This document shows, in pieces, positions 1 to 63,743 of a DNA stretch of 64,000 nt (within the stretch, counting starts at the first letter, position 1; the number at the start of each line of letters is the position of its first letter). The stretch comes from Raja brachyura (Eukaryota), in the NCBI GenBank assembly GCA_963514005.1, contig OY740783.1, positions 5,332,001 to 5,396,000 of the forward strand. The letters run 5' to 3'. Both the position numbers and the translations under genes were made by a program. The notes beneath the pieces were generated by a model. That model saw nothing but the letters and a program-made list of their open reading frames with translations. It did no database searches and had not been told where the DNA came from.

Positions 1-929
1 GGAGTAACTCAGCAGGTGAGGAAGCATCTATGGTCACCTATGAAGGAATGGGTGACTGTTCAGGTCGAGACCCTTCTTCAGACTGACGTTGGGGTGTGCG
101 GGAAAAAGACAAGAAGAGGCAGAGACTGTAGGCTGTGGGAGAGCAGGGAAGGGGAAGGAGGGAGAAACCACTGATATTGAAGAATGGGAAGATGAGGCCA
201 GTGGTGGGATCCCATTGGAGGTGGCAAAGATTTTGGAGGATTATCTGTTGTATGTGACGGCTGGTATGGCAGATGGGGAGGACATGGGGGACTCTGTCCT
301 TGTTACGAGTAGGGGGGTGGGAATAAGACGAGAGCTGTGGGATATAGAGGAGACCATGATAAGAGTGCTGGAGTAACACAGCGGGTCAGGCACCACCTCA
401 GGAGGAAAAGGATGGGTGATATTTTGGGTAAGAACCCTTCTTCCGTTCCATCCCTAAATCTCTTGTTTCTACAGAGATGCTGCCTGACCCACTCAGTTAC
501 TCCAGTAATGTGTCCATCTTTGGTATAAACCAGCATCTACAGGTCTGTTTCGACATTTTACATCAGCCTGATTCAATTTCAGTTGTGATAAGGTTCGGGT
601 ATCATCACTTTAGTAAAGATACATCCTTTTATTCTGACACTGTGCCCTCTGGTCCGAGACTCCCCTGCTAGTAGAAACATCCTTTTAGTTCAGAGATACA
701 GCGCAGAAACAGCCCAATTCCAGTTGCACCAGAAAATATAATCATTGAAAACCCTGGACATTTCAAATGACACAATTGAAAGGAAAAATCAGCAGAATTA
801 ATCAAAGAAGCAAACACAATTCAGGAGAGAGCGATAGTGTTCTCACCAACCTCATGCCCTGGAGATGCAGATCTACATCAGACACAAGGGGAGGTTCCCT
901 GCCTCTACCCTGAGCACTGTTCCCAACAA

Positions 930-2087: not shown

Positions 2088-2118
<31 letters not shown>

Positions 2119-2146: not shown

Positions 2147-2570
2147 CTAACATCGGTGAGACCAAGCGCAGGCTCGGCGATCACTTCACTGAACACCTCC
2201 GCTCGTTCCGCATTAACCAACCTGATCTCCCGGTGGCTCAGCACTTCAACTCCTCCTCCCATTCCCAATCCGACCTTTCTGTCCTGGGCCTCCTCCATGG
2301 CCAGAGTGAGGCCCACCGTAAATTGGAGGAACAGCACCTCATATTTCGCTTGAGCAGTTTACACCCCAGCGGTATGAACATTGACTTCTATAACTTCAGG
2401 TAACCCTTGCTTTCCCCCTCTCTCTATCCCCTCCCCTTTCCCAGTTCTCCCACCAGTCTTATTGTCTCCGACTACATTCTATCTCTGCCGCACCCCCTCC
2501 CCTGACATCAGCCTAAGGGTCTCGACCCGAAACGTCGCCCATTCCTTCTCTCCAGAGATGCTATCTGAGC
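2147..2570 (+). mobile_element. Penelope-like element 3' fragment (GIY-YIG end plus 3' repeat)
   Basis: IGETKRRLGDHFTEH...LEEQHLIFRL..LHP.GMN, near-identical to the end of the 18.1-19.2 kb ORF. Preceded by a (CT)n tract at ~1955-2140. Confidence 0.85.
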
Positions 2571-10901: not shown

Positions 10902-11275
10902 GTTATGGTGTACCGGACATTGATCTGTTTGCATCCAGGTTTAATCATCAGTTACCAAATTACGTGTCATGGGAGCCAGACCTAGGGGCAGTAGCAGTTG
11001 ATGCATTCTCGCTACACTGGGGTGGAAAATATTTATATGTATTTCCCCCATTCTGCCTCATCAGTCGATGCTTGGCCAAGATCAAGCAAGACTCCACTTC
11101 TGGCATATTAGTAGTACCAGACTGGCCGACTCAGCATTGGTTCCCACTCATCCGAGCTATAATTACACAGCCTTTTATGGCTCTCCCCAAGAGCAGAAAT
11201 CTGCTGGTACACCCTGTGACAGGGGAAAGCCATCCTCTTCATGACCGTATAAATGTATTGGTTTGCCGATTCTGA
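10902..11275 (+). pseudogene. DIRS adenine-methyltransferase-like domain
   Basis: DIDLFAS...DAFS..W...YVFPPF...VPDWP.Q.WFP, the MT domain pattern of DIRS1 pol C-termini. Confidence 0.8.
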
Positions 11276-12250
11276 GGAGACCGTTCCTGGGGCTCGGGCT
11301 TTCAGAGCATACGATAGATGTGATCACTGCGGCCTGGAGGAAGAGCACCCAAAAACAGTACCTCACTCACATAAGGAAATGGGAGATGTACTGTTCTCTC
11401 TCAAAAATTTCATATGACACGGCTTCCATCACGGATGTTTTGGAGTTTCTTTCATCACTTTTCTATGATCAGAAGCTCAGTTACAGTGCCATAAATAGTG
11501 CTAGGAGCGCTTTGTCATCTTATTTATGGCTGGGGTCAGGGAATCACACTGTAGGATCTCATCCCTTAAAAACTAAATTAATGAAGGGCATTTTTAACTC
11601 TACTCCCCCTTGGCCTACATATTCACAGATATGGGATGTGAGCGTGGTTCTTACGCTGCTCCGTCAGTGGGCACCAGCTTCATCCCTGTCTCTGTATTAT
11701 CTCACACTCAAGGTAGTCATGCTCATCACGCTGGCCTCAGCTCAACGGGTCCAGACATTACATAAACTTAGACTGGACAGCAATGTTACAACTTGTGACC
11801 ACATCACCTTTTTTGTTCATGATCTCATTAAGCAGAGCAGGCCGGGGATATTGGGGCTAGAATTGAGTTTTATGGCTTACTCCTTAGACCTATGATTGTG
11901 TGTGGTATTTCACATATTACAATACGTTAAGGTCACTAAGAGCCTCTGAGGCTCGGAACTATCCTTATTCATCAGCTACACCAAACCTCATAGGAAGGTT
12001 ACAGTGCAGACCATCTCAAAATGGATTAAACAGGTTCTGGCATGTGCAGGAGTGAACACAATTCTGCACATGCACAGACACTTTTAAACCTCATTCCACC
12101 AGGGTTGCATCGACGTCATCAGCAAGGTATATGGGCGTCCCTCTCGACCACATTCTAGCGGCTGCGGGATGGTCTAATGAGCGGACGTAGCAAAGGTTTT
12201 ATAACAAACCTATCGCCAGACCGGGGACTTTTGGTAATTCTGTTTTAAGT
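11263..12250 (+). pseudogene. DIRS tyrosine recombinase ORF (stops and frameshifts after 11895)
   Basis: AWRKSTQKQY, SYSAINSARSALS, WDVSVVL, ASAQRVQ (catalytic Arg region), and a later FKPHSTR. Confidence 0.88.
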
Positions 12251-15430: not shown

Positions 15431-17344
15431 GACATAAAAACAGTTTTTTTCCACAAACAGTAGTTCTACTTAATAACCAAAAGTCTGTAAACTCCTTTTG
15501 CTCTGCTATTTTACTTCATTCACATGTTTGAACTATAATGTTTTATTCTTAATATTTTAATGTTTTATGTTTTATTCTTAATGGTTTAGTCTTAATGCGA
15601 GCGGAGCACCAAGACAAATTCTTTGTGACTGCACATACGTGGCCAATATGATGAAAGAATGGAGCGACTAGGCTTAAATCTCTTCCCTGTACGGGTGACC
15701 CGACCTTTTCCCTGTTGTCGTTGGGGCCTAGCACCGTGGAGCGGCCTCCAACCGGTACGACCCGGGCGCTCCAGTCGCGGAGCCTGCGGACTCACCATCG
15801 CGGAACTGGCCTGCTTCGGGGCGTGGAGAGCTGTGGTGGCGCACGGCTGCGACCCGACTCCGGAGCGCGGAGGCTCCAGCTGCAGGTCCGGTGGACGGTG
15901 ACATCGGGAGCTTGCGGGTCCCTGGTGGGAGACCGCTTTTCGGTGCTCCTGCAATGGCAGGGCTGCCAACTCTCACACACTGAGCGTGAGACTAACACGT
16001 TTGAGGAAATTCTCACGCCCTCACACTGATGACAGAAGTTCTCACGCTCAAAAAAATATTTTTTAAAATGTATGAATAAATAAATAAAGTCACACTCCTC
16101 CACACTCACCAATGGGAATAGTTTTTTGTTGGCAGGTACCCCGTAAAGAACGAGCAATTTTATTGGCTTAAGCCCATCGCACACTATTTAAAATGGCAAT
16201 GTAGGCAAAAATGCTGGAGAAACCCAGTGGGTGAGGCAGCATCTATGTCTGAGTTTGACCTTTCTTCAGATTCAAGCATTTCTCCAGGATTTTTATCTAC
16301 CGCTCTATAGATGCTGCCTCATCCGCATTCACATTCCCGTGCAGATGGGTGGTCCCAGCACTGCCCCCGTGTCCCCCCCTGAGGCACCGCTCACATCTCC
16401 CACCCTCACCTCCGGCGGCTCTGTCCACACCACATGGAGTTTTAACCCCGGCCCGGAGCCAGGAGCCGACCGGGTGAGTGGGGGCATCGGGGCCGCCTCC
16501 GGAGCCGCGGGGATGAATCTCGGGCTAAGGCGCCGCTCCGATGCCTGACCCCCGGGTCACTGAACCTCACCTCCCCCGGACCCCCGGGCCACTGACCCTC
16601 ACCTCCCCTGGACTCAAGCTGGACACAGAGCACCTGGGCCGGCCCGCATTCCCGGGGAGGGGGGGAGAGAGGGAAATGCTCCCCGGATATCGCCAAGTCT
16701 CCGCTCACTCCGGGTGTTGTCGCCGCTTCACTGATCCACACTCTCACACACACTGGCACACACAAAGTTTAAAGGGATTTGGGCCAAATGGGAATAAATG
16801 GGACTACTTTAGATGGGGCATGTTAATCTGCATGAACAAGTTGGGATGAAGGGCCTGTTTCCATGCTGTAAGACTATGACACACTGTAGAAAGGGTGCAA
16901 TTGCTCTGGAGAGGATCCAGGGATGATTTATGAACATATTGGCGTGGCTGGAATTTTTATTTTCACTTTGAAGAAAGATTTGATAACTGGAATTGTATTC
17001 TCTGCAGCAACAGAGGTGAAGAAGAGACTTAGTTGAGGTGAATAATATTATGAGAATAGGACCTGTTTCGCTTAATAAGGAGTGTAAGAAGGAACTGCAG
17101 ATGCTGGCTTAAACTGAAGATAGATACTAAAAGCTGGAATAACTCAGCAGGACATGTAGCATCTCTGGAGAGAAAGAATAGGTGATGTTTCGGGTCGAGA
17201 CCTTCAGACTGAAGAGGTTGAAAACCAGCCATAAAACACAATGACTGGAGATGTGTGATATCCAACTAATGGCAGGAATTAGAATCATGTGTTCATCTTT
17301 ATTGACGTGTCACCATAATAAATATTACAGAAAAAATAATTTAA

Positions 17345-17620
17345 TGGGGTGGCACGATGGCGTATCGGTAGAGTTGCTGCCTTGCAGCACCACAGACCCA
17401 GATTTGATCCTGACTACGGGTGCAGTCTGTACAGTATTTATACATTCTCCTTATGACCACATGGTTTTCTGTGGAAATTCCGGTTTCTCCCACATCTGAG
17501 AGAAGTGCAGGTTTGTAGGTTAATTGGCTTCTGTAAATTGTCCGTGGCGTGTAGGATACAACTGGTGTATGATAGATTGCGGTCGGTGTCGACTTGGTGG
17601 GCCGAAGGGCCTGTTTCCAT
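17345..17620 (+). mobile_element. tRNA-derived SINE (HE1/V-SINE-like), decayed
   Basis: ggcacgatggcg.. A-box-like head, ccggtttctcccacat central region, and CR1-like 3' end gggccgaagggcctgtttcc. Confidence 0.7.
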
Positions 17621-18148
17621 ATATATATGTTTTACATATATATCTTAATTTCATTGAACAATATATGGTTGATTATGTGGAATTATTTTCATCTTGTGTC
17701 TATAGTCAAAGGGTAAGTTTAATTGATTTATTTGTGCAGATCAGTGATGGAAGTCAGATTCTTCTTGCTTTTTTCTATGTTTTGGTTTCTCTATATTTTC
17801 ATAACAGCTCTATATATGAATTATAATCTGATTTCCATACATGAATATACTAATGTCATTCATGTGCTGCACCTGTTGATCAGAGCCTGGCTCTACTGTG
17901 GAATGTAATTAGGAATGTAATTTAGCCTAACCTTATTCACACCTGATCCAATTTGAAGCATAAATATTGCATTGTGTAAGTTAAAAGTATGCACCAGATT
18001 CCACAATTTCAAACTGAAAAATGCAAAAGCTTCCTACCATGGGAGGTGGGACAGCAAGAGAGTTTTGAATCTGTGGAATTCACTGCCACAGAAGGCAGTG
18101 GAGGCCAATTCACTGTGTGTTTCCAAAACAGAATTAGATATACTATAT

Positions 18149-19505
18149 ACCAACTTCCATCCGGCACTCAAATATACTTGGACCATTTCCAACTTCCATC
18201 CGGCACTCAAATATACTTGGACCATTTCCGACATTTCCCTACCATTCCTTGACCTCACCATCTCTATTGCAGGTGATACACTCCTGACTGACATCCACTA
18301 CAAACCAACTGACTCCCACAGCTACCTGGACTACTCTTCCTCCCACCCTGCTTCCTGTAAGGACTCCATCCCCTATTCCCAATTCCTCCGTCTACGCCGC
18401 ATCTGCTCCCAGGATGACGTGTTCCACACCAGGTCATCGCAAATGTCCTCGTTCTTCAGAGAACGGGGTTTCCCCTCCCCCACTATAGATGAGGCTCGCA
18501 CCAGGGTCTCCTCCATACCCCGCAACACTGCCCTCTCTCCCCATTCCCCCACTCACAACAAGGGCCGAGTCCCCCTGGTCCTCACCTTTCACCCCACCAG
18601 CCAGCGCATACAACAGATAGTCCTCCGCCAGTTTCGTCACCTCCAACGTGACCCCTCCACTCGCCACATCTTCCCATCTCCCCCCCTGTCTGCCTTCCGC
18701 AAAGACCGCTCCCTCCGCAACTCCCTCGTCAATTCTTCCCTTCCCTCCCGCTCCACTCCTTCCCCGGGCACTTTCCCTTGCAACCGCAAGAGATGCTACA
18801 CTTGTCCCTTCACCTCCCCCATCCACTCCTTTCAGGGACCCAAGCAGTCATTCCAAGTCCGACAGAGGTTCACCTGCACCTCCTCCAACCTCATCTACTG
18901 CATCCGTTGCTCCAGATGCCAGCTGATCTACATCGGTGAGACCAAGCGGAGGCTGGGCGATCGTTTCGCCGAACACCTCCGCTCGGTCCGCAATAACCAA
19001 CCCGACCTCCCGGTGGCTCAGCACTTCAACTCCCCCTCCCACTGCGTATCCGACCTCTCGGTCCTGGGCCTCCTCCACGGCCAGAGTGATCAACACCGCA
19101 AGTTGGAGGAACAGCACCTCATATTCCGCTTGGGGAGTCTGCATCCTCTGGGCTTAAACATTGAATTTTCTCAATTCTGTTAACCCAGACTGCCTCCCCC
19201 CCACCTCTCCCTCAGCCCTCTGGCCCTGACATTCCTTCTCCATCTCCCCCCCCCCCCCCCCCAGTCGCACTAGCTTCTCATTTTCACACCACAAACAGCT
19301 TACAATGGCCTGCTTCCTTTATCACCAATACTTTTTTGCATATCTTTCACTCATTGTTCCTTATCTCTCCACATCACTGTTTATATCTCTCGTTTCCCTG
19401 ATCCCTGACCAGTCTGAAGAAGGGTCTCGACCCGAAACGTCGCCTATCTCCTTCGCTCCTTAGATGCTGCTGCACCCGCTGAGTTTCTCCAGCTTTTTGT
19501 GTAAC
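18149..19505 (+). mobile_element. Penelope-like element (RT C-terminus plus GIY-YIG endonuclease), 5' truncated with a 39-bp 5' duplication
   Basis: Uninterrupted frame to 19183 with LPFLDL, YKPTD...YL...S.HP, CxxxxCxxC and NLIYCIRC..C...YIGET.R....RF.EH. Confidence 0.93.
19414..19441 (+). ncRNA. Minimal hammerhead-ribozyme-like core in the Penelope 3' repeat
   Basis: CTGAAGA-A-GGGTC(TC)GACCC-GAAA-CG-TC: a CUGANGA box, stem II, GAAA, palindromic ACGU in place of stem III, and a GUC cleavage triplet. Stem I is weak. Confidence 0.6.
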
Positions 19506-20966
19506 CCTAGATATACTATACATCTTGGATCTAACAGAATCAAGGGATATCGGGAGAAAGCAGGAACGGGGTAATGATTTTGGATGATCAGCCATGATCA
19601 TATGGAATGGCGGTGCTGGCTCGAAAGGCCGAATGGCCCCTATTTTCTATGTTTCTATATTTTACTCACGTGTTCTAATCTGCTTCTGCACTGATATCGA
19701 TTAACCTGCGAAATTAAATCTTTGTAAATAATTTGCTGGCCTCTGTGATTTTATGTAAAAAAAAAATCTACATTTAGGAGACATAGAGCCTAAACTGACT
19801 TAAGTCTGGAGACTCTTTCTTCGTGGGAATGAAAATCCCCCCTGCCCTCCTCCAAACCCTTGGTATGACCTGCTTCTGCCAAACTATTCGCAAAAGCGTC
19901 TGCGAGAATCTAAGCACATCAGGTGCACGTTTATATGCTTGGTAAGAGACTCAACTCGGCCCTGGAGCTGAATAAGCCTTTTCACGCCATATTACTCCTT
20001 TAACTTCGGTGGCAAAACATCTAACATATGCTCTATCTCTCCTAAGGTTGGTAGATCTGGAGGGAACATGGGCCCGACACTGGGCCCTATGACGGCAGGC
20101 CCAGTCAGTAATCAAACAACCTAAGGTCCAGAAACACAAAGCACACAGAGTTGGTCTTGCATTATGCCACGGAAAGTAGGCCCAATCTCTATTCAAATTA
20201 CTCTGGGCCCAGTAACTATAGTTGCAGTTACCCTGATAGTGCGCTGAATGGGCCAAATGCAACCAAATGAGACTAGTCCATGATACCCAACTAGTGGGAT
20301 GGGTAGATTGCATCGCTTTGTGTCTCCGTGTGGACTATTCTTATTTGGGGGGCAATATTCCCTCACTCCTCGCTGTCAAAGGCCGCACCAACGTCCCAGT
20401 AAAAGTGTAACCACGATGGGTACGAGGCAAATCGATCTGAACTAATTTACTATCCGTTGGTGTAATGTGATCCCAGCTAATTCCAGATGCTGACGAATAA
20501 TTCTTAATGTCTATCCTTGTATCTTGCCCGTTCTAGACTCCATACCCAGAATCATACCCATGTACGTTGCTGGTCTCTCTGACGGTGTTGGCTGCATCAG
20601 GTGCACACTCGTTGCTTTGAAACATTTCTTTGAATATTCGACAGACATATAAGAGGGTGTGTGATATTACTTAGTGCTTGGTGGAGCAGGCAGTTTGTCA
20701 TCACAACCTATTTGTCGAAGATAGTTACTGTATAAGGGGAGTTTGCGAAAAGCTTCTCCTGGAACTTTGGCATAAAATGCACTCAAATATATATGACCTT
20801 AACTTCATCGTACACCCAAGCACGCAATGACCGCATAATCGAAGTGATTCCTATTCTACCAACCAGCGATTTGAGAGAAATTATCTTTAGGCGTATTTAG
20901 CAGCAGGTGCTGGTTCCTTCGAGAAACAAACTTAGCAAACCAGGTTCGGCTTTATGTAATTCCGCT

Positions 20967-21737: not shown

Positions 21738-21746
21738 TCACTTGAC
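21738..21746 (-). CDS. IGHM: IgM transmembrane exon TM2 (V-K-stop)
   Basis: Polypyrimidine tract ctctccctctctttacag| GTC AAG TGA completes the canonical KVK cytoplasmic tail. Confidence 0.9.
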   Translation of the reverse strand, partial: VK

Positions 21747-21769
21747 CTGTAAAGAGAGGGAGAGAATAT

Positions 21770-22211
21770 GGGACGTCAGGACTTTCATATGAAGAAAGAC
21801 TGGATAGACTCGGCTTGTACTCGCTAGAATTTAGAAGATTGAGGGGGGATCTTATAGAAACTTACAAAATTCTTAAGGGGTTGGACTGGCGAGATGCAGG
21901 AAGATTGTTCCCGATGTTGGGGAGGTCCAGGACAAGGGGTCACAATTTAAGGATAAGGGGGAAGTCTTTTAGGACCGAGATGAGAAAAACATTTTTCACA
22001 CAGAGAGTGGTGGGTCTCTGGAATTCTCCGCCACAGAAGGTGGTTGAGGCCAGTTGAGGGAGTTAGATGTGGTCCTTGTGGCTAGAGGGATCAGGGGGTA
22101 TGGAGAGAAGGCAGGTATAGGATACTGAGTTGGATGATCATATTGAAAAGCGGTACAGGCTCGAAGGGCCGAATGGCCGACTCCTGCACCTATTTTCTAT
22201 GTTTCTATGTT
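21770..22211 (+). mobile_element. CR1 3' fragment in the TM1-TM2 intron
   Basis: YSLEFRRLRGDLIETYKI ORF plus (tttctatg)n tail. Confidence 0.85.
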
Positions 22212-22330
22212 TGTAATATGAAAGTGCATTAGCAGTCTGTGACGAAGATGCCAGGGCCTTCAAAGAGTACGATAATCGATATTTTGCCCGACTCTTCAAT
22301 CGGGTGGAAAAGTAAGTGGAATGAACTCGC

Positions 22331-22458
22331 CTTCACCAGAGTTACGGCAGCGCCGTAGGAAATGCTCAGGAAGAACAGGATAATGAATGTGGAAGCGGTT
22401 GTCCAGATGTTGTCTCTGTCTTCCTCATAGTCCTCAATACGAACGTCGTCGGCGTAAT
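22331..22458 (-). CDS. IGHM: IgM transmembrane exon TM1
   Basis: Not in the ORF track. gcgtag| DYADDVRIEDYEEDRDNIWTTASTFIILFFLSISYGAAVTLVK |GCGAGT: an acidic spacer followed by the conserved antigen-receptor TM motif (WTTASTFI.LF.LS..Y...VT). Confidence 0.95.
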
Positions 22459-23110
22459 CTACGCAAAGCAGAACGCGAAGACATTCACAGTGTTTTCTTA
22501 TATATTACATTGTATTTTATTTATTACTTACCAAAATAATACGAATATTAATATTGGGGATATTAATTTACTATGAACTGTTTTTACGCTGAGGTAATCA
22601 CCCTCAATAAATATATACAAAATCATGACCATTTGTAGCCACAGCAGCTAATAAAGAACCGTTTATGAATAGTTTTAGAGAAAGCCATGTGTATGTATAT
22701 TTCTGGGATTAATTGTTCATTTTATAAACGTCCGCTTCCCATTAATATAATTTTCTAACCGAGATGATATAAAAATGGAAACTGGTTATTGCTTACAATG
22801 TTATCAGATAAACCTTTATTTGGAGTTGGCGACCGGACCTCGGCGAAGGAACTCACTGAACGCAAACATTGCCATAATTCCCACATTAGAACCCTGTTGT
22901 CTGATGTATCCTGTTTTCGGATAGGTAATGGAGGAAGGCTTGTCTACAAAAATAGCTTTAAACTATTTAATAGGCAATACTTTTTCTGGTGTAAAATATG
23001 GAGCATGAATTAATCTACGGTTACACTTAGTCTTTTGGAACGCGTGGAAAACTACTGGTTAAATGATCTGAATTGCCCTTGCCTTTGCCTGTAACTGGGA
23101 GGACGTGTAT

Positions 23111-25046
23111 NNNNNNNNNNNNNNNNNNNNNNNNNNNNNNNNNNNNNNNNNNNNNNNNNNNNNNNNNNNNNNNNNNNNNNNNNNNNNNNNNNNNNNNNNN
23201 NNNNNNNNNNNNNNNNNNNNNNNNNNNNNNNNNNNNNNNNNNNNNNNNNNNNNNNNNNNNNNNNNNNNNNNNNNNNNNNNNNNNNNNNNNNNNNNNNNNN
23301 NNNNNNNNNNNNNNNNNNNNNNNNNNNNTGTGAGTGTGTGCCTGTGTATGTGTGTGTGTGTGTGAGTGGGTGCGTGTGTGTATNNNNNNNNNNNNNNNNN
23401 NNNNNNNNNNNNNNNNNNNNNNNNNNNNNNNNNNNNNNNNNNNNNNNNNNNNNNNNNNNNNNNNNNNNNNNNNNNNNNNNNNNNNNNNNNNNNNNNNNNN
23501 NNNNNNNNNNNNNNNNNNNNNNNNNNNNNNNNNNNNNNNNNNNNNNNNNNNNNNNNNNNNNNNNNNNNNNNNNNNNNNNNNNNNNNNNNNNNNNNNNNNN
23601 NNNNNNNNNNNNNCGTAGTTGTAGAAAATCTATTTCAACATCAATCAGGATTTGTGAAGAAGAAAAATATTATACGAGTCAATATATCTGCTACCGTGTA
23701 TTGGCACGGGAAATTTGCTGTGAAGGTCCATTGGTATTAAAGTGAGCGTCTAAATGTATTTGTGTTGTATTCATGTGTTTTATTTTGTGTAAATATGCGC
23801 TTTTAGATAACCGTTCCTATTATTTTGCATTTCACAGAATGTTTGATTACTGGCCTGTTTAGGTGGATGTCCATGTGCTATGGTGTATATATGTCGTTAA
23901 TTGTGTTTTATGTATGTTTCTATGCGACCCATAAATTATTTTATTTTCGTGCGCTGGCTGATGTTTTGTGATTAGTGTGCTCCGTGTACTTCTGGGGGAG
24001 AGCTGGAAACGGAGTTGCCCTTGTCTAACGCTCGAGCCGGGTGCTATTAAATCCCTCGCCGCATCTGATATTGGGCTCGAAGTTCGTGTTCTCACCAGCC
24101 GCTCAGACCGGTGATCCCATCAATCGCCTGCACACACTATCAGGGGCGATGACCGTTTATTAAGTGAGCGCCACAGTATTCTCGACCCGAAATTAAACAG
24201 CCCACTTCTTCATGGGAATAATCTATTCTGCTGACACTTTATTCCTGAGCTTTCAAGTTGCACTTAGTTGTACTTGGAATTACGTTGCTTTCATTTTTAT
24301 CATTTAATGGAGGCCAAATCACTGGATGGATTTAAGAGAGTTGGATAGAGCTCTCGGGGCTAGTGGAGTCAAGGGATATGTGGAGAAGGCAGGCACGGGT
24401 TATTGATAGCGGACTATCAGCCATGATCACAATGAATGGCGGTGCTGGCTCGAAGGGCCGAATGGCCTCCTCCTGCACCTATTTTCTATGTTTCTAAAAA
24501 TAAATTGGATAGGTATATGGACGGGAAAGGAATGGAGGGTTATGGTCTGACTGCAGGTAGATGGGACTAGGTGAGAGTAAGTGTTCGGCACGGACTAGAA
24601 GGGCCGAGATGGCCTGTTTCCGTGCTGTAATTGTTATATGGTTATTGCATTGATATCGGCTGTTTGGACTCTGCGTTCCAGAAGACTTTCAGCGATAACA
24701 TTGTCTTTTCATTAATATATGGAGGTTCCACTCTCATTCCTTATTTTTGGGCGTGTTTGTGTGTGTGTGTGTGTGCCTGCGTGTGTATGAGTGTGCTTGT
24801 GCATGTGCTTGTGTGTATGTGTGCCTGTGTGTGTGAGTGCGTGTGTGCGCGCGTGTGAGTTTGATTGTGAGTGTGTGCCTGTGTATGTNNNNNNNNNNNN
24901 NNNNNNNNNNNNNNNNNNNNNNNNNNNNNNNNNNNNNNNNNNNNNNNNNNNNNNNNNNNNNNNNNNNNNNNNNNNNNNNNNNNNNNNNNNNNNNNNNNNN
25001 NNNNNNNNNNNNNNNNNNNNNNNNNNNNNNNNNNNNNNNNNNNNNN
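23111..25046. other. Assembly gaps (23111-23328, 23384-23613, 24889-25046; another at 39602-39753)
   Basis: N runs next to (TG)n or (GACA)n microsatellites. Confidence 0.99.
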
Positions 25047-25675
25047 CAGGCGTAGTTGTAGAAAATCTATTTCAACATCAATCAGCATTTGTGAAGAAGA
25101 AAAATAAGTGTGTGTGTGTTAGTATGTGTGTGTGTGTGTGTGTGTGTGAGTGTGTGTGTTTATATTGTTAATCCTCGTGCAATTGTGCAAATATGTTGAG
25201 TACATGGCACTATGTAAACGTTTCACGTGATTATGCAGATGGGCGTTCACACAATGAGACATTGAATGTGGATTTCAATCCATATGTGGAAATAGAAATG
25301 TGTGCAGAAATATGCGTGACAGACGCATGGCAAATTACAAGTTCCCCTCATGCGGGCGGAAGAGGACGAGTTGCTACGACGTCTCACATCCTGCCTCGGA
25401 TCTGAATGGATTGGAAACAGGAGAAGGAGAGAAATGGAGATCCACAGACATGGACCCATATCTGCCCAGCAAGAGCAATAATGTTGAAGTGAGTCCGCTA
25501 TTCGTGCAGCTGTGACTTATCTCCCAAACCCCGATGTTACTGTGTGTGCAGTCTGCATCCGTTTTCCGTGAATGGTCGGCAAGATTTTCAAGTATCAACG
25601 TCATCGTTTTGGCAAATGTTCTGTATAATTAATTGGGTGGCCATGTGTTCAGCTCAAGATTGGAAGTTAAATGTA

Positions 25676-25691
25676 TTTATTAGTATTTATT
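25676..25691 (-). terminator. Secretory-form polyadenylation signals (2x AATAAA)
   Basis: Plus-strand tttatt at 25676-25681 and 25686-25691, about 30-40 nt 3' of the secretory stop. Confidence 0.75.
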
Positions 25692-25718
25692 TCAGAGAAA
25701 ATTGAAACTAATTCATTC

Positions 25719-26110
25719 TTATTGACAGGAATTGACAGTGTCCATCAATACAAGGGAAACGTTGACAAAACTGGGTTTACCGCTAGACTTATTGACCGTT
25801 CTGACGATGGTCTTCATGGGGAGTGCTTCGTGCCCCACCAGACAGGAGAAGGAGGCTCCGCTAGCCCACTCCGCTGCCCCAACGGATAACAGGCTGTAGG
25901 TGAAGAATGTGTCATTGCCGTTCTCCGCCACCACCTCGGTGTTCTTGTACTTGCTCCAATGCACCCGCTTGTCATCATGCATCCACGTTACGAAGACCCT
26001 GCGAGGGGAGAATCCTCTCACAAAGCAGGTGAGGGTGATAGTCTTGTGCGCGGAGATCTCTTCTGTCGGCGGCAGAAGGACTGAGACGGACGGTGTCAGC
26101 AGATGTTGAC
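25719..26110 (-). CDS. IGHM: IgM constant exon CH4 plus secretory tailpiece (internal donor for the membrane form after 25781)
   Basis: ccgtag| [15 protein letters not shown]...[11 protein letters not shown]...[18 protein letters not shown]...[24 protein letters not shown]. The tail has an N-glycosylation sequon (NVS) and a penultimate Cys, as in mu. Internal donor AGC G|GTAAAC. Confidence 0.97.
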
Positions 26111-26143
26111 CTACGGGACAATTCAAATGGCGTTTATTTATTT

Positions 26144-27033
26144 GGGAGGTTTCACGGCAGTCGGGTCACGACCCGTGACCCGTACCGTTGCCGCGCCACG
26201 CCAACTGGAGTACACACGATGAACTGCAGGTAAGCACTGGCCATTGTTTCCAGCGTAGCGGGCCCGTTAAAACCCACCAAAATGGTCCATTTCTGCGCTG
26301 TAAATAATTATGGAAATTGGGATAAGCGCGAGAGACATTTAGCCTACTTCAGAATTCCAAAAGTGAGGAGAAATGACGGTAGATAGAAGCGAGAGCTGAA
26401 GGGACAACAACAGTCCGAGTGCTTGGCGAACATTGGCCGTTTGCTCACTGCATTTCATCAACTACGGTATTATTTGTGTTTTTTCTTGATTCCTTTGGCA
26501 TCTAAAAAGTTTCCGAAGTGATAAATCTGGCTGTAAAATTTTAAAATCGCCCATGGTTCTCAAGTGGGTTTTTACATATGAAAAGAAAACGCCTCTGAAG
26601 TAAAATTTACAGCCAGGTTTATCACTTCTGAGACTTTTTAGATACCAAAGGAATCAAGAAAAACCACAAATAATGCCTTACTGTTGATGAAATGCAGTGA
26701 GCAAACGCGAGAATTCCCAATATTTTAAAATTCTGATATCTGCACGGCCAATGTTCGCCAAGCACTTTAGCTGTTGTTGTCCCTTCAGCTCTCGCTTCTC
26801 TTTACCTTCATTTCGCTTCACCTTTGGAATTCTGAAGTTGGGTACGTGTCCCTCACGCTTGCCCCGACTTCCACAATTTCTCACAGCGCCAAAATTCAAC
26901 ATTTTGGCGGTTTTTAACAGGTAGGAAAGTGTGCGTTTCTTGCATTAATAACATGTACTGGAAGCTGTGATGTCCTCCAGATGGATTGAGTGGCTCCGTG
27001 CGTCAAGCCCAGTGACCTAACGTGCAACCCCCC
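26144..27033. mobile_element. Foldback/MITE-type non-autonomous DNA transposon in the CH3-CH4 intron
   Basis: Long imperfect palindrome (~26260-26545 versus ~26600-26920) with termini gggaggtttcacg...cgtgcaacccccc. Confidence 0.7.
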
Positions 27034-27149
27034 TATTAACGGTATTACATTCCCCTTTTGTGACGTCTCTTTGTTCAGACATCTACAGCTGAATGTGTGT
27101 CTCCCCTTTGCACGGGAGAAGATTTGTATGAAATGGGAAGTGTCAGTGA

Positions 27150-28582: not shown

Positions 28583-29044
28583 CTATAGCACAATAATTAA
28601 TGTGAATATAAGCATTTGCAGGGGTAATTAGGATGGAAGGTTTACACCAATCATTCGCCCCCAGAACTTTAATGTGTACACGATGGCTTCTGAGTTGTGA
28701 TTATGGGAACTGTGGTCCTAAATCATCTTGAACTGACTCTAGTCTCTGTGCAGAGAACAACACAATGAGTGAAATGAGAGATCGCACCATGGGCTATCGT
28801 TTTTTTGTAGACTCATACCTTTAGTGTCCCTCTCCACTAATACTAGAAGAGTCTCGACCCGAATCGTCACCTGTTCCTTTTTTCTAGAGATGCCTAACCC
28901 GCTGTTACTCCGGCATTTTGTGTCCACTTTCGGTGTAAACCAGCATCAGCACTTCCTTCCTATGTCAATGTCAGTGAAGTTCTACCACTGTGAGCACTAA
29001 TGTTTACACTAATACCCGAGACACACCACGGATGTATTTCTTAC

Positions 29045-39192: not shown

Positions 39193-41127
39193 GCAATGAA
39201 ATGGGCTCAAGAAACGACCATGCGTCGCAAGACCTATATGGAGTCCACTGGGAAAAAATAAATGTTTCATCAGAGATAGCTACTTGAGGTAACGGAGGTT
39301 GAAACCTTCCCATGTGATTCAGCGCGGTCTAATTTAAAACAGACCGACAAGGCAACAGTTCGGGAGATTATGTTTCATTGCACCGCTGTATTCAGTGGTT
39401 TCAAAATGCCAGGATGCAAAAGCACAGCCTATGCATTGACAGTTGACCACATTAATTGAAGGATGAAAACCATAGATTCAGGCTGAACAAAATGGAAATA
39501 AAATGACAAGAGATGTGAGTGTGTGAGCAATATTTGAGGTAGACAGACAGACGGACGGACAGACCGACACAGACCGACACAGACAGACACAGACCGACAC
39601 ANNNNNNNNNNNNNNNNNNNNNNNNNNNNNNNNNNNNNNNNNNNNNNNNNNNNNNNNNNNNNNNNNNNNNNNNNNNNNNNNNNNNNNNNNNNNNNNNNNN
39701 NNNNNNNNNNNNNNNNNNNNNNNNNNNNNNNNNNNNNNNNNNNNNNNNNNNNNTCAAAGGTAGACACAGAATGCTAGTGACATAGAAACATATAACACAG
39801 AGAGTGGTGAGTCTCTGGAATTCTCTGCCACAGAAGGTAGTTGAGGCCAGTTCATTGGCTATATTTAAGAGGGCGTTAGATGTGGCACTTGTGGCTAAAG
39901 GGATCAGGGGGTATGGAGAGAAGGCAGGTACGGGATACTGAGTTGGATGATCAGCCATGATCACATTGAATGGCGGTGCAGGCTCGAAGGGCCGAATGGC
40001 CTACTCCTGCACCTATTTTCTATGTTTCTATGTTTCTATAAAATAGGTGCAGGAGGAGGCCACTCGGCCCTTTGAGCCAGCACCGCCATTCATTGTGATC
40101 ATGGCTGATCGTCCCCTATCAATAACCCGTGCCTGCCTTCTCCCCATATCCCTTGACTCCACTAGTCCCTAGAGCTCTATCTAACTCTCTCTTAAATCCA
40201 TCCAGTGACTTGGCCTCCACTGCCCTCTGTGGCAGGGAATTCCATAAATTCACAACTCTCTGGGTGAAAACGTTTTTTTCTCCCCTTTATTCGAAGACAT
40301 TTATTCCCCTTTATTCTGACATTTCTGGTCGAGACCCTTCTTCAGACTTCTCCAGAGATACAGTCTGTCACCGTTGAGTTACTCCAGCATTTTGTGTCTC
40401 CCTTCGATTAAAACCAGCACCTGCAGTTCCTTCCTACACATTCGTTGTCAATATCGAATCATATTGGGACTGTCCATTCCAATTTCGAGTTTAGTTACAG
40501 AAAAGGCAGTAGGGAGAAATGATAATAATGCAAACACAACGTTATATTAAAATGTCATCAAGAGTTCCAAAGGAAATTAATGGATGTTACGGGTGCAGGA
40601 GTGGAATTGTAGATCTGTCGAGTGATTGGAGAAATTATCGGCATTAGGGATGATTCCTGTGGTGTTGATATTCCATAGAGCAAAGTTGAATGAAGACAAG
40701 TTCCAAACAATGAATCAATTAACACATTTGTTGGACAGTGTTACAATGATCCAGACTGCACTGGCTGGGCGAATGGTGTCTAATTGAGATATCTGAAGAA
40801 GAATCCACTAGTGTTATCTGAGGAGAGAGATAGAAATAGTCATTAACCGATGCGTGAGGAAAACACAAGGAATGTGGAACATTTAAGGTGCAGACAGGCA
40901 AATCAATGTTCCTGCGTTCCAACATACTATTCTTCCACGACTTTGAATTGGAATTAATCATTGTATTTTCTGTGCATCTGTGAATTTGTTACGTGTGGCA
41001 TTCAAATGTATGCAGAGAATGGAATTGATCCCAGCCATTGTTGGAAAATATGATACATGTTCTTAGTTAACCTAGCTTTGTAGGGAATATTGCGTTAAAG
41101 AAGGAACTGCAGATGCTGGAGAATCGA

Positions 41128-41278
41128 GGGTACACAAAAGGCTGGAGAAACTCAGCGGGTGCAGCAGCATCTAAGGAGTGAAGGAGATAGGCGACGTTTC
41201 GGCCCGAAACGTCGCCTATCTCCTTCGCTCCTTAGATGCTGCTGCACCCGCTGAGTTTCTCCAGCCTTTTGTGTACCT
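41128..41278. repeat. Near-perfect palindrome of two Penelope-derived 3' repeats
   Basis: ...gataggcgacgtttcgg c ccgaaacgtcgcctatc..., with arms of ~72 bp. Confidence 0.9.
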
Positions 41279-41779
41279 TTGTTGGGAATATTATTGACTA
41301 CCATCATCCATATGAACTTCAACTTTGTTTATTTTTTATACGAGTGAACGTTGACAACTTAAACTAAATTTCTCTGAAGTAGTCAGTTGGGAGATTTGCA
41401 TTTCTTTCTCACTTTATCAGTTTTGCACCTCTCGGGAAACATTGACTCCATTTCTGTCCTTCAGTAAACGAACTTAGGTCTGGGGCTGTTGAAATCAGCG
41501 TTTATTTAAATCAGCTCATCTCTGTTTCCAGCCACTTTTAGAGCAACACAAACCAGGCAATGAAGACACCATTCTCAACGGCGATGATATGTTTTAAGGA
41601 TATTGGCAGTTGGCGCGAATCAACTGAACTCTCTGAAGGAGTCCATTTCTTCATTTCTCGTTCAAATAAATTGATGGGATTGAAAATTATGGATTCACTT
41701 CAGAATATTATTTTGCTGCCCACTTGAATCTCCACTTGCAGGGATGTTTGAGCAAATGAGGTCAATAGAGGAATCACAA

Positions 41780-44700
41780 AGCGGATGACACAAAGTTGGG
41801 TGGCAGAGTGAACTGTGAAGAGGATGTTAGGAGGTTACAGGGCGACCTGGACAGGTCGAGTGAGTGGGCAGATGCGTGGCAGATGCAGTACAATATAGAT
41901 ACATGTGAGGTTATTCACTTTGGTGGCAAAAACAAGGGGGCAGATTATTATCTCAATGAGGTTAGGTTAGGTAAGGGGGAGGTACAGAGAGACCTGGGTA
42001 TCCTTGTACACCAGTCACTGAAAGTTGGCGTGCAGGTACAGCAGGCAGTGAAGAAAGCTAATGGAATGTTGGCCTTCATAACAAGAGGATTTCAGTGCAG
42101 GAGTAAAGAGGTTCTTCTGCAGTTGTATAGGGCTCTGATATGAGCACATCTGGAGTATTATGTACAGTTTTGGTCTCCTAATTTGAGGAAGGACATCCTT
42201 GTGATTGAGGCAGTGCAACGTAGGTTCACGAGATTGAAACTTTTTCACCCGGAGAGTTGTAGAATTTGTAGAATTCCCTGCTACAGAGGGCAGTGGAGAC
42301 CAAATCACTGGATGGATTTAAGAGAGAGATAGAGCTCTAGGGGCTAGAAGGAGTCAAGGGATATGGGGAGAAGGCAGGCACGGGTTATTGATTGGGGACA
42401 ATCAGCCATGATCACAATGAATGGCGGTGCTGGATCGAAGGGCCGAATGGCCTCCTCCTGCACCTATTTTCTACATTTCTAACTTTCTATGTTTGTAGGC
42501 ATCAAGACACACACACGCAGAAGTAAGAATTTAATTGTACTTATGAAAATTATACATTCTTGATACTTGAAGCGTCATAGGTGAGAAACATATCCTGTTC
42601 CTGCTTTTTCCAATATCCCACGATTCCTTTAGTCCTAAGAGCTAAACCTAACTCTCTCTTGAAAAGATCCAGTGAATTGGTCTCCGATGCCTTCAGTGGC
42701 AGAAAATTCCACAGATTCACAACTCTCTGAGTGAATTTTTTTATCCTCATCTCAGTCCTACATGGCCTATCCCTTATTCTTAAACTGTGACCCTGGTTCT
42801 GGTCTCCCCCAATGGCGGGAACATTTTCCCTGCATCCAGCCTCTCAGTCCTGCCATGCCGGGAATAAACCTGGTGAAATTAATGGATGTTATGATCCACT
42901 GCACTACCTCAATAGCAATAATGTCCTTCCTCAAATTACGAGACCAAAATTGCACACTATATTACAAGTGCGCTATCACCAGGGGCTGTACAACTGCCAG
43001 TAGGACCTCCTTACTCCTAAACTCAAATCCTCTTGCAATGAAGGACAACATGCCATTAAGTTTTTCTTCTTCCAGCCCCCCCCCCACCCCCCGCCTTCAC
43101 ATCAGCCTGAAGAAGGGTTTCGACCTGAAACGTTGCCCATTTCCTTTGCTCCATAGATGCTGCCTCACCCACTGAGTTTCTCCAGCATTTTTGTCATTAG
43201 ATTTCTTCACTGCCTGCTGTACCTGCATGCTTACTTTCAGTGACTGAAGCACACCCAGGTCTCACTCAACCTCCCCTTTTCCAAATCTGACACCATTCGG
43301 ATAATAAACTGCCTTCCTGTTCTTGCCACCAATGTGGATAACCTCACATGTATCCACATTATATTGCCACCTTGCAGCCTCATAGCATCCTCATCGCAGA
43401 TCACACTGCCACCCAGCTTTGTGTCATCCGTAAACCTATCTTGGAAATGTCACATTTAATTCCCTCATCTAAATCGTTAATATATATTGTAAATAACTGG
43501 GGTCCCAGCACCGAGCCTTGCTGCATCCCATTAGTCACTGCCTGCCATCCCGAAAAGGACCAGTTAATTCCTATTCTTTGCTTCCTGTGTGCCAACCAGT
43601 TCTATATCCATGTCAGTACCCTACCCCCAATACCATGTGATATAATTTTGCCCACCAATCTCTTGTGTGAGACCATGTCAAAGGCTTTTTGAAAGTCCAG
43701 ACACACCACATTCACTGGCTCTCCCTTATCCATTCTACTGGTTACATCCTCAAAAAATTCCAGAAGATTAGTTAAGAATGATATCCCCTTCATAAATCCA
43801 TGCTGACTTTGACCAATCCTGTCACTGCTTTCCAAATGGGCCGCAATAACATCATTAATAGTCGACTCAAGCATCTTACCCACGACCGATGTAAGGCTAA
43901 CTGGTCTATAATTTCCTGTCATCTCTATCCCTCCTTTCTTAAAAAGTAGAGGTACATTGGCTACCCTCCAGGACACAGGAACGTATCCAGAGTTGGGAGA
44001 ACATTAGAAACAGAAACACAGAAAAAAAAGGAGGAGGCCATTCGGCCCTTCGAGCCATTGTGATTATGTCTGATCGTCCCCTATCAATAACCCGTGCTTG
44101 CCTTCTCCCCATATCCCTTGACTCCACTAGTCCATAGAACTCTATCTAACTCTCTCTTAAATCCATCCAGTGACTTGGCCTCCATTGCCCTCTGTGGCAG
44201 GGAATTCCATAAATTCACAACTATCTGGGTGAAATAAATTTTTCTCACCTCAGTCTTAAATGACCTCCCCTTTATTCTAAGGCTGTGGCCCCTGGTTCTG
44301 GACTCGCCCAACATTGGGAACATTTTTCCTGCATCTAGCTTGTCCAGTCCTTTTATAATTTTATGTTTCTATAAGACACTCCCTCATCCTTCTAAACTCC
44401 AGTAACTACAAGCCTAGTCTTTTCAGGGATTTGAGTATAGGAGCAGGGAGGTTCTACTTCAGTTGTATAGGCTCTTGGTTAGACCACACCTGGAGTATTG
44501 TGTACAGTTCTGGTCTCCAAATCTGAGGAAGGACATTATTGCCATAGAGGGAGTGCAGAGAAGGTTCACCAGACTGATTCCTGGGATGTCAGGACTATCT
44601 TATGAACAAAGACTGCATAGACTCGGTTTATACTCTCTAGAATGTAGGAGATTGAGAGGCGATCTTATAGAAACTTACAACATTCTTAAGGGGTTGGATA

Positions 44701-61895: not shown

Positions 61896-63743
61896 TCCTA
61901 GAGAGAGTACAGAGGAGATTTACTAGAATGTTGCCTGGGTTCCAGCAACTAAGTTACAGAGAAAGTTTGAACAAGTTAAGGCCCTGTCTCACTGTGCGAG
62001 TTGACCCACGAGGTACCCCGTGTGAAAGACTCGTGGTAGTGCACGAGATTTCAAGTTTATGATCAAGTGCTTAACCGAGTTCCCACGGGTATGTCATTGC
62101 TGCGATGTTACTCTCCCGAGTTAACAAGTTCCTCTCCCGTTACTCTTGAGCCAACCGTGAATGAAGGTAAGTGTGTGAGGTGTGAGAAGTCCATGCCGGG
62201 TGCCGGCCGGCCACAGCCGCTGTTCAGATTATTGGGAGGCGGAGCTCAGGGTTCGCCTCTTGAGCTGCTTTGGTGCCCAGGCGTACGTTGAGGTGGAAGG
62301 TGGTTGGGGGTGGGGGGGGGCTCGTCTTCTGAAGAAGGATCTCGACCCGCTGAATTACTCCAGCAGTGTTAAAGAAGGAACTGCAGATGCAGCAAAATCG
62401 AGCGTACACAAAATTCTGGAGAAACTCAGCGGGTGTAGCAGCATCTATAGAGCGAAGGGATGGGTGACAGGAGGGTCTCGACCTGCTGAAATTCTCCAGC
62501 ATTTGGATCTAAACATCACCCATCCCTTCCCTCCAGAGATGCGGCCTGTCCCGCTGAGTTACTCCAGCTTGTTTGTGTCTATCGTTGAATGGGTGACATT
62601 TCGGGTCGAGACCCTTCTTCGGACTGAAAATAAAACTTGCCTCGCGTGAAGCGGCTTGTAAATTAAAACATAAAAACAAGAAATGCTAGACTCATTTATG
62701 TGCTCGTATTCATTTACCTGGCCTGTTGCTGTCCTCCCTCGTCCACCGTGAGCGCTGGACAACTCACTGGGTGCAAAACTCCGCAGCATTCCGGGCGGAG
62801 GGCGATGATCACCCGACTGTCCTAGAGAGAGTACAGAGGAGATTTACTAGAATGTTGCCTGGGTTCCAGCAACTAAGTTACAGAGAAAGTTTGAACAAGT
62901 TAAGGCCCTGTCTCACTGTGCGAGTTGACCCACGAGGTACCCCGTGTGAAAGACTCGTGGTAGTGCACGAGATTTCAAGTTTATGATCAAGTGTTTAACC
63001 GAGTTCCCACGGGTATGTCATTGCTGCGATGTTACTCTCCCGAGTTAACAAGTTCCTCTCCCGTTACTCTTGAGCCAACCGTGAATGAAGGTAAGTGTGT
63101 GAGGTGTGAGAAGTCCATGCCGGGTGCCGGCCGGCCACAGCCGCTGTTCAGATTATTGGGAGGCGGAGCTCAGGGTTCGCCTCTTGAGCTGCTTTGGTGC
63201 CCAGGCGTACGTTGAGGTGGAAGGTGGTTGGGGGTGGGGGGGGGCTCGTCTTCTGAAGAAGGATCTCGACCCGCTGAATTACTCCAGCAGTGTTAAAGAA
63301 GGAACTGCAGATGCAGCAAAATCGAGCGTACACAAAATTCTGGAGAAACTCAGCGGGTGTAGCAGCATCTATAGAGCGAAGGGATGGGTGACAGGAGGGT
63401 CTCGACCTGCTGAAATTCTCCAGCATTTGGATCTAAACATCACCCATCCCTTCCCTCCAGAGATGCGGCCTGTCCCGCTGAGTTACTCCAGCTTGTTTGT
63501 GTCTATCGTTGAATGGGTGACATTTCGGGTCGAGACCCTTCTTCGGACTGAAAATAAAACTTGCCTCGCGTGAAGCGGCTTGTAAATTAAAACATAAAAA
63601 CAAGAAATGCTAGACTCATTTATGTGCTCGTATTCATTTACCTGGCCTGTTGCTGTCCTCCCTCGTCCACCGTGAGCGCTGGACAACTCACTGGGTGCAA
63701 AACTCCGCAGCATTCCGGGCGGAGGGCGATGATCACCCGACTG
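61896..63743. repeat. 924-bp direct tandem duplication
   Basis: 61896-62819 and 62820-63743 are nearly identical; I saw one substitution (gtgcttaacc versus gtgtttaacc). Confidence 0.95.

What the first reader, a model, noticed from the sequence alone, without database searches (positions are those of the whole stretch)
19414..19441. Dispersed family of minimal hammerhead-ribozyme-like motifs derived from Penelope 3' repeats
Seen: CUGAAGA-A-[GGGUC/GACCC]-GAAA-CG-UC lies just after an intact GIY-YIG frame. About ten variably decayed relatives occur, most without any adjacent ORF: ~55-85(-), ~2515, ~17185(-), ~28850, ~40320(-), ~43107, ~62330, ~62595(-), ~63520(-) and ~63840. Established: Penelope-like elements carry minimal type I hammerheads whose palindromic, loop-less stem III allows cleavage as dimers, and an extra A after A9 occurs in natural hammerheads. 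Inference: a very abundant non-autonomous, ribozyme-bearing (retrozyme-like) family, with copies inside an Ig intron. Caveat: stem I pairing is only 1-2 bp, so many copies may be inactive.
Basis: partly seen in the sequence, partly recalled or inferred. Interest (0 to 1): 0.7.

Follow-up and report, generated by a model that had tools for sequence, protein, structure and literature searches.

The report
Penelope retrotransposon ends with minimal hammerheads
The motif is real but of a known kind: a hammerhead-ribozyme-shaped sequence at the end of a Penelope-like jumping gene, present in tens of thousands of copies, and the many short gene-less copies are likely by-products of copying the uncut front end of that element's own RNA rather than a separate self-cutting element family.

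Summary
Confirmed: 19414-19441 has the minimal type I hammerhead layout and sits in the terminal repeat (pLTR) of a 5'-truncated, young Penelope-like element (PLE) with a 13-bp target-site duplication (TSD). The genome holds 35,267 exact 31-mer copies and tandem full-length units of about 4 kb. Such motifs in PLE pLTRs, mostly as lone copies, are published (PMC4209133). The 'retrozyme-like family' reading is not supported: only 6 of 100 copies have a same-strand neighbour within 1 kb, and short copies share their common variants with long ones. In the window only the focal copy has the exact core. The single intronic copy is antisense to IgM and lacks the CUGA box. Of more interest: 60 of 115 young copies begin 24-33 nt before the cut site, at the motif's 5' edge, and none at the cut. 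Genome-wide, cut-site counts match neighbouring controls (306 vs 278 and 316). So short copies likely copy an uncleaved RNA 5' end. Cleavage was not tested. This scan reported the same pattern before, in this genome and other sharks and skates.

The parts
18135..18147 (+). Left target-site duplication (13 bp) of the focal insertion
   Evidence: Same 13-mer at 18135 and 19508
18150..18188 (+). 39-bp duplication of the element's first bases at the 5' junction (likely a template re-jump)
   Evidence: Sequence; other copies align only from 18189
18189..19183 (+). 3' part of the PLE ORF: C-terminal part of RT, C-X4-C-X2-C linker (CNRKRCYTC), GIY-YIG endonuclease, stop; 5'-truncated
   Evidence: Open frame; Pfam GIY-YIG E=4e-4, below cut-off; 95-99% identical to most long genomic copies; full ORF with RVT_1 + GIY-YIG in L166
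19184..19410 (+). Pyrimidine-rich 3' UTR / upstream part of the pLTR, ending in CCCTGACCAG (also resembles a splice acceptor)
   Evidence: Sequence; shared by long copies
19409..19418 (+). Hot spot of 5' ends of short genomic copies (-33..-24); inferred RNA start near A19411 in an initiator-like CCAGTCT
   Evidence: 60 of 115 copies; 4,464 genome copies with non-C before A(-31), 30 of 30 checked are true 5' ends
19412..19443 (+). Minimal type I hammerhead: stem I 2 bp (19412-13 with 19442-43), CUGAAGA 19414-20, extra A 19421, stem II 19422-33, GAAA 19434-37, CG 19438-39, UC 19440-41; predicted cut after 19441
   Evidence: Sequence; matches the min-HHR description in PMC4209133; cleavage not tested
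19444..19507 (+). Downstream pLTR up to the 'short' 3' end; contains ATG 19464 of a 41-codon frame that, in full-length copies, runs through the 34-nt tail and overlaps the start of the long ORF
19508..19520 (+). Right target-site duplication
1..86 (-). Older-subfamily copy, GAAA box broken
362..548 (.). Decayed head-to-head pair (362-446 minus, 466-548 plus)
2152..2569 (+). Older PLE 3' end (EN 82% aa identical over 82 aa) with hammerhead lacking CUGANGA
17085..17212 (-). Older short copy with tail; core has a deletion
28845..28961 (+). Only copy inside the Ig gene (intron between exons 29004-29384 and 28227-28700); antisense to Ig; no CUGA box
40317..40435 (.). Head-to-head pair; minus-strand core with two substitutions
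41095..41280 (.). Young head-to-head palindrome (one short end, one tailed end) joined inside stem II
43101..43224 (+). Older copy; catalytic boxes kept, stem II and C17 changed
62330..63552 (.). Nested pLTR fragments inside an exactly duplicated block (924-bp offset); includes 62595(-) and 63519(-)
   Evidence: same composite with the same upstream flank at L010
63834..64000 (.). Older copy (63841, core broken) followed by an inverted young copy

Best explanation
The motif is the minimal hammerhead carried in the pseudo-LTR of a young Penelope-like retrotransposon with a Neptune/Nematis-type linker, and the dispersed gene-less copies are likely direct by-products of that element's own copying. 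Shown: full-length units of about 4 kb lie in tandem, so the stretch 'hammerhead + 66 nt + 34-nt tail' stands both before the ORF and after it. Inferred: transcription starts about 3 nt before the CUGA box. The element's RT/endonuclease nicks a target and starts cDNA inside the RNA at one of two sites (short end or tail end), as shown in vitro for the Anolis PLE. Starting in the 3' copy gives long 5'-truncated insertions like the focal one. Starting in the 5' copy runs off the RNA end after about 100-130 nt and gives the short TSD-flanked stubs. Priming both target strands gives head-to-head pairs with one short and one tailed arm. Predicted: the ribozyme is inactive as a monomer and would cut only occasionally, as a dimer and probably with protein help, to trim tandem transcripts. 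The RNAs that became insertions were mostly uncut.
For: Focal copy: ORF, UTR, motif and TSD in one insertion. Tandem units with motif spacing 3.93-4.05 kb in 4 of 20 fetched regions' loci (L151/152, L153/154, L155, L160). Long frame of 1,204 codons with RVT_1 and GIY-YIG. Two 3' ends 34 nt apart, 71 short and 44 tailed of 115, like the 30-40 nt PLE tail between two RT start sites (PMC11167929). 5' ends: 60 of 115 at -33..-24, 43 further upstream (30 beyond -260), 12 further downstream, 0 at 0..+2. The same edge appears as many unlike loose ends at -32/-30 in contigs of other runs (X1, X2, X8). Short non-inverted copies: a 7-18 bp flank match was found for 39 of 78; most look like TSDs, several are spurious. 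Short and long copies share haplotypes. 16 of 16 abutting head-to-head pairs have one short and one tailed arm (14 independent loci). Core conserved across subfamilies: exact or 1 mismatch in 11 of 15 copies with EN <90% aa identity where the motif was located, some with 3' UTRs only 34-41% identical. Monomer fold is a non-hammerhead shape (stem II pair probability <=0.01).
Against: No raw reads, cap data or 5' RACE: the RNA start is inferred from DNA only. The pile-up is spread over about 10 nt and coincides with a splice-acceptor-like CAG; in D. virilis the intron end maps to the 5' end of helix I (PMC4209133). The extra-G (cap copy) sign is weak: G 54, A 35, T 11 of 100 listed bases before A(-31), but only 11 G of the first 30, and some G come from inverted junctions. 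Many of the -32 starts are inverted junctions, where the exact end is ambiguous. True truncations at the cut site were 15 of 30, more than at -3 (4 of 30, p=0.005) but not more than at +3 (11 of 30, p=0.43), so a small cleavage footprint is not excluded. No compensatory covariation was found. Samples come mostly from the first 6 Mb of one contig and were picked by exact words, so they favour young copies.
Confidence: 0.75

Rival explanations
1. An independent non-autonomous retrozyme/SINE-like family: short ribozyme-bearing units are transcribed, self-cleave, circularise and are mobilised in trans by PLE proteins.
For: More than half of young copies are short and ORF-less with a defined 5' edge, and many have TSDs. 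Some composites recur with identical flanks (L174, L181, L187, L193, L194). Animal retrozymes derive from PLE pLTRs, and one chondrichthyan genome has some (bioRxiv 10.64898/2026.07.22.740005).
Against: Not tandem (6 of 100). No private variants among common haplotypes; one 4-copy haplotype was seen only in short copies, but its variant base also occurs in 4 long copies. Units cut by the ribozyme would begin at the cut site or be circularly permuted; they are not.
Confidence: 0.1
2. The -31 edge is a 3' splice site or an RT stop, not a transcription start: cDNA stops or jumps at the acceptor CAG or just past the folded core.
For: Pyrimidine tract, CTGAC and CAG precede the core. D. virilis Penelope has its intron end at helix I (PMC4209133) and its start site 46 nt before a 75-nt intron (PMC2377424). 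Ends are spread over -33..-24.
Against: No recurring upstream exon was seen by eye in the flanks printed; flanks are target DNA, inverted element or scattered jumps. Joints to -32..-29 lack GT..AG ends. RT normally stalls before a hairpin, not 10 nt after it (own knowledge).
Confidence: 0.2
3. The core is conserved for a non-catalytic reason (core promoter DNA or protein-binding RNA) and does not cleave in this lineage. The ACGT palindrome lies at +27..+30 from the inferred start, where a downstream promoter element would sit.
For: Stem I is 2 bp and the monomer misfolds. No clear cut-site footprint. HHR mutants do not affect PAc insertion in vitro and no reads end at the PAc cut site (PMC11167929). 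Penelope's DPE is RGACGTGY (PMC2377424). 8 of 9 Xenopus dimers did not cleave (bioRxiv 10.64898/2026.07.22.740005). Downstream pLTR is also well conserved (72-100% in most copies).
Against: All catalytic positions, the extra A, G10.1-C11.1 and the palindrome are present together. The base after the cut alternates A/G (38%/60%), both pairing with U2.1. PAc's motif cleaves with protein and shows C3/G8 rescue (PMC11167929). This rival is compatible with the best explanation on how the stubs arise.
Confidence: 0.25

Closest known systems
Minimal type I hammerheads (min-HHR) in pLTRs of metazoan PLEs (Cervera and De la Pena 2014, PMC4209133; read parts 1-2 of 4, no supplements)
   Same: CUGANGA and GAAA boxes, unpaired base after A9, G10.1-C11.1, palindromic 15.2-16.2 without loop 3, place in both pLTRs, most copies lone and tied to truncated PLEs.
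   Different: Stem II is 4 bp and stem I only 2 bp (S. mansoni 7-8 and 4-5 bp; D. virilis also 2 bp in helix I). Copy number is higher (35,267 exact vs 2,000-9,000 reported). The core is nearly invariant rather than highly variable. No cartilaginous fish is named in the parts read.
Poseidon element PAc of Anolis carolinensis (Frangieh et al. 2024, PMC11167929; read parts 1-2 of 4)
   Same: Two RT start sites bounding a 30-40 nt tail inside the 5' coding region, both target strands primed, cleavage not needed for insertion.
   Different: This element has the CX2-5CxxC linker (Neptune/Nematis type; PMC8557442, passages) and a longer ORF (about 1,190 aa). The first ATG is 22 nt after the cut site, not in stem II.
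Non-LTR retrozymes (PMC7229834, passages; bioRxiv 10.64898/2026.07.22.740005, parts 1-3 of 5)
   Same: Non-coding, type I hammerhead-bearing, related to PLE pLTRs.
   Different: Retrozymes are tandem arrays of 150-450 bp, in PMC7229834 with canonical hammerheads and circular RNAs. These copies are lone or inverted, minimal, and do not start at the cut.

Membership tests
Endonuclease-containing PLE | Single long ORF with RT followed by C-terminal GIY-YIG | tested here: met
   L166 frame of 1,204 codons: RVT_1 688-856 (E=2.5e-4) and GIY-YIG 1108-1141 (E=1.7e-3), both below Pfam cut-offs; DKG, YIDD and IYC..YIG motifs seen
Endonuclease-containing PLE | Tandem or partial-tandem copies forming pLTRs; inverted 5'-truncated partners | tested here: met
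Endonuclease-containing PLE | Optional 30-40 nt tail at one end | tested here: met
   34-nt tail in 44 of 115 copies; one arm only in 16 of 16 pairs
Neptune/Nematis clades | CX2-5CxxC motif in the RT-EN linker | tested here: met
   CNRKRCYTC; feature from PMC8557442
Neptune clade | RT phylogenetic placement | not tested
   No named reference set fetched; no tree built
PLE minimal type I hammerhead | Catalytic boxes, extra base after A9, G10.1-C11.1, palindromic 15.2-16.2 | tested here: met
   descriptor scan: 119 hits with CGTH in 864 kb vs 0 in each of 5 shuffles (regions were picked for holding the repeat)
PLE minimal type I hammerhead | Helix I of 4-5 bp as in most described families | tested here: not met
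   2 bp only; no stronger pairing found. D. virilis variant also has 2 bp (PMC4209133)
PLE minimal type I hammerhead | Compensatory covariation in stems | tested here: inconclusive
   100 of 145 descriptor hits identical; only one-sided changes (U-A to U-G in stems I and II)
PLE minimal type I hammerhead | Self-cleavage as a dimer | not testable with these tools
   Monomer misfolds; helix III duplex -3.1 kcal/mol
Non-LTR retrozyme | Tandem repeats with a hammerhead in each unit | tested here: not met
   6 of 100 copies in 3 pairs, no longer arrays
Non-LTR retrozyme | Unit ends set by cleavage; circular RNA | tested here: inconclusive
   No clear excess of DNA copies at the cut (306 vs 278 and 316); only assembled contigs available for RNA
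Independent SINE-like lineage | Private diagnostic mutations in short copies | tested here: not met
   69 short vs 62 long copies, shared common haplotypes

The most novel reading that the evidence does not exclude
The tens of thousands of stubs are a fossil run-off map of PLE reverse transcription in a living vertebrate. The RNA starts, capped, 3 nt before the hammerhead core. A protein dimer primes both target strands, always one at the short end and one at the tail end. The hammerhead stays uncut in the templates, and its ACGU palindrome may double as a downstream promoter element.
Probability: 0.45. Interest if true: 0.55.

Novelty: new member of a known kind. Interest (0 to 1): 0.27.

Why it matters
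As a ribozyme discovery it is ordinary: minimal hammerheads in PLE pLTRs have been known since 2014. Its value is as test material. What these motifs do in the PLE cycle is still called unclear (PMC8557442). A young family with more than 35,000 exact copies gives counts that speak to that question. Templates were mostly uncut, which weighs against a cleave-ligate-circle route for this family. The strict short/tailed pairing supports in vivo the two RT start sites seen in vitro for the Anolis element. There is no sign of an effect on the IgM gene.

Tried and rejected
Rfam scan: no hammerhead family among 21 matches at E<=5; hits are inverted repeats. Extended stem I: none better than -4.2 kcal/mol. 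Covariation: core too invariant to test. First endonuclease tblastn used the wrong frame and was redone. pattern did not fit the young family's spacing and counted only an older subfamily (1,246); not used. RNA: 24 runs listed, all assembled contigs, most only guessed to be RNA; 4 of 24 laid (X1, X2, X6, X8); no start, strand or cleavage can be read from them and table 6 was empty. Cap-derived G: suggestive only. Cleavage footprint: not clearly above controls. Ig effect: rejected; the focal copy is antisense and about 2.2 kb beyond the candidate TM2 exon at ~21746. Lunse et al. 2017 was not held; only its title was seen in a reference list. Literature searches for a report of this family or of the 5'-edge pile-up found none among the listings; subscription journals, Repbase/Dfam and supplements were not seen, and the bioRxiv supplement on chondrichthyan retrozymes may list relatives. 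A script timed out with no output.

Full report
Numbering: 0 is the first base after the predicted cut (window 19442); the C of CUGA is -28.

1. Observation. Window 19414-19441 reads CTGAAGA-A-GGGT-CTCG-ACCC-GAAA-CG-TC. That is the type I hammerhead order with a 4-bp stem II, an unpaired A after A9, a loop-less ACGU palindrome and a GUC triplet. Stem I is 2 bp (U-G, G-C). A degenerate pattern finds 8 window sites against 0 in 100 shuffles, and a profile finds 21 fragments. Of 12 sites aligned, only 19414 has the exact core and 43107 keeps the catalytic boxes; the other 10 are broken. Two sites lie in an exact duplication. Rfam has no hammerhead hit.

2. Context. The window holds an IgM-like heavy-chain gene on the minus strand: V 37706-38026, four C1-set exons 25719-32182, TM1 near 22400 and a candidate TM2 near 21746. 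The gene type suggests a cartilaginous fish (own knowledge; earlier scan notes call the genome a skate). The focal motif is on the plus strand, about 2.2 kb beyond TM2. It ends a 1.36-kb insertion flanked by a 13-bp TSD (18135, 19508) and holding the 3' part of an RT-GIY-YIG frame. Only one fragment (28845-28961) lies inside the Ig gene; it is antisense and lacks CUGA.

3. The parent element. G000 (2.7 Gb) holds 24,626 exact copies of a 32-mer with the core, 35,267 of core plus GCC, 40,551 of a 3' anchor and 566 of a word about 2.15 kb upstream in the ORF. Among 20 regions fetched around that word, four loci show tandem units with motif spacing 3.93-4.05 kb. A unit reads: hammerhead, 66 nt to the short end, 34-nt tail, a 41-codon frame from ATG +22 overlapping a long ORF of about 1,190 aa, 3' UTR, hammerhead. 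The ORF has RVT_1 and GIY-YIG hits, both under cut-off, and a C-X4-C-X2-C linker, the mark of Neptune and Nematis PLEs (PMC8557442, passages). No tree was built.

4. What the short copies are. I took all 115 distinct copies with the exact 3' anchor in 120 fetched loci and mapped their 5' ends against a real copy. Result: 30 reach beyond -260, 13 end at -260..-34, 60 at -33..-24, 4 at -23..-1, none at 0..+2 and 8 at +3 or later. In contigs of other runs, many unlike loose ends lie before -32 and -30 (X1: 102 and 49; X2: 156 and 57; X8: 6 and 4; not listed for X6). Genome-wide, 4,464 copies have a non-C base before A(-31), and 30 of 30 checked are true 5' ends. At the cut site the like count (purine before the first base) is 306, against 278 at +3 and 316 at -3. 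True truncations were 15, 11 and 4 of 30; the rest were point changes or indels. The cut site exceeds -3 (p=0.005) but not +3 (p=0.43), and 5 of the 15 come from one tandem array and one inverted pair. So at most about 1% of young copies start at the cut. A flank match of 7-18 bp was found for 39 of 78 short non-inverted copies in a pooled set that includes pattern-picked loci; most look like TSDs, several are spurious. Short (69) and long (62) copies share their common haplotypes and divergence (1.8% vs 1.6%). Only 6 of 100 listed copies have a same-strand neighbour within 1 kb, while 16 have an opposite-strand one. All 16 abutting head-to-head pairs, 14 of them independent, have one short and one tailed arm; three more distant pairs were LS, SS and LL.

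5. Mechanism. Shown: tandem layout, two 3' ends, the 5'-edge pile-up, TSDs, shared haplotypes, short/tailed pairing. From the literature: the Anolis PLE protein nicks and extends both strands, starts cDNA at two internal sites that bound the tail, does not need cleavage for insertion, and its hammerhead cuts only with protein (PMC11167929, parts 1-2). Inferred: the RNA starts near A(-31) in an initiator-like context; initiation in the 5' pLTR copy runs off this end and yields the stubs, while initiation in the 3' copy yields long truncated copies. The base before A(-31) was G 54, A 35, T 11 of 100 (counted by hand; 2,039 exact G copies of a 42-mer). This fits cap copying only weakly, as inverted junctions also supply G. 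Predicted: the monomer folds into a competing hairpin that hides the cut site (stem II pair probability <=0.01), so any cleavage would need a dimer and probably the protein.

6. Is the core under selection? Among 20 endonuclease hits under 90% identity, the motif was located in 15; 11 are exact or one mismatch from the focal core, including copies whose 3' UTR is only 34-41% identical (a few low identities are frameshifted young copies). The 60 nt after the cut are also conserved (72-100% in 14 of 15), so the constraint is not confined to the ribozyme. Only one-sided pair changes were seen. The ACGT palindrome lies at +27..+30 from the inferred start, and Penelope's downstream promoter element is RGACGTGY (PMC2377424, passages); a promoter role is a lead, not a result.

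7. Comparison and novelty. Cervera and De la Pena 2014 (PMC4209133, parts 1-2 of 4) describe this motif class in pLTRs, with most copies lone and tied to truncated PLEs, and low activity even as dimers. Retrozymes are defined by tandem units (PMC7229834, passages; bioRxiv 10.64898/2026.07.22.740005, parts 1-3 of 5), which fails here. Inverted pLTRs, tails and solo pLTRs are described in PMC3846280 and PMC8557442 (passages). PMC6765202 and PMC6155905 were seen as passages. My searches listed no paper on this family or on the 5'-edge pile-up, but supplements and repeat databases were not seen. My reading was noted before I consulted earlier scan notes. A sequence look-up found nothing; a word look-up showed 8 similar findings, one in this genome. 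One of them claimed a cut-site footprint, which prompted; this family shows no clear one.

8. Verdict. A real feature and a new member of a known kind. Interest 0.27. The retrozyme reading is unlikely. The insertion statistics are a useful, testable clue to how PLEs copy themselves.

Noticed in passing
window 21740-38300 (-): IgM-like heavy-chain cluster: V exon, recombination signals at 37083, 37097 and 36759, four C exons with secretory tail, TM1 and a candidate TM2 exon.
   Followed up: partly
window 62100-63624: Exact 924-bp-offset duplication holding a composite of nested pLTR fragments; the same composite with the same flank occurs at L010 and similar fixed composites recur at L174, L181, L187, L193, L194, so a larger repeat carries them.
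   Followed up: partly
window 2651-4291 and 10769-11895 (+): Gag-like frame, RT (RVT_1 E=1e-20) and integrase SAM-like domain (E=2e-6): looks like a fragmented DIRS/Ngaro-type element, split by LINE pieces.
   Followed up: no
window 38673-38923, 29612-29768: Long inverted repeats that give sub-threshold miRNA hits in Rfam; the first appears to be inverted LINE sequence.
   Followed up: no
L166:4852-8463; L151, L153, L155, L160: The PLE ORF has a long Pro-rich N-terminal region (about 1,190 aa in all) and is overlapped by a conserved 41-codon upstream frame; the long ORF's ATG sits in a splice-donor-like AAG-GTATG.
   Followed up: partly
G000:C1:1532514-1532634 (L064): Tail-to-tail pair, one tailed and one short end, separated by about 21 nt that matches the TSD of the forward copy; 3 of 4 tail-to-tail pairs were short+tailed.
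   Followed up: partly
L254-L256 (G000:C2:55272484-55272640): Three 61-bp tandem units that each begin exactly at the predicted cut site; a single locus.
   Followed up: no
window 17340-17620 (+): Short repeat resembling a tRNA-derived SINE with a LINE-like 3' end (identification recalled, not tested).
   Followed up: no
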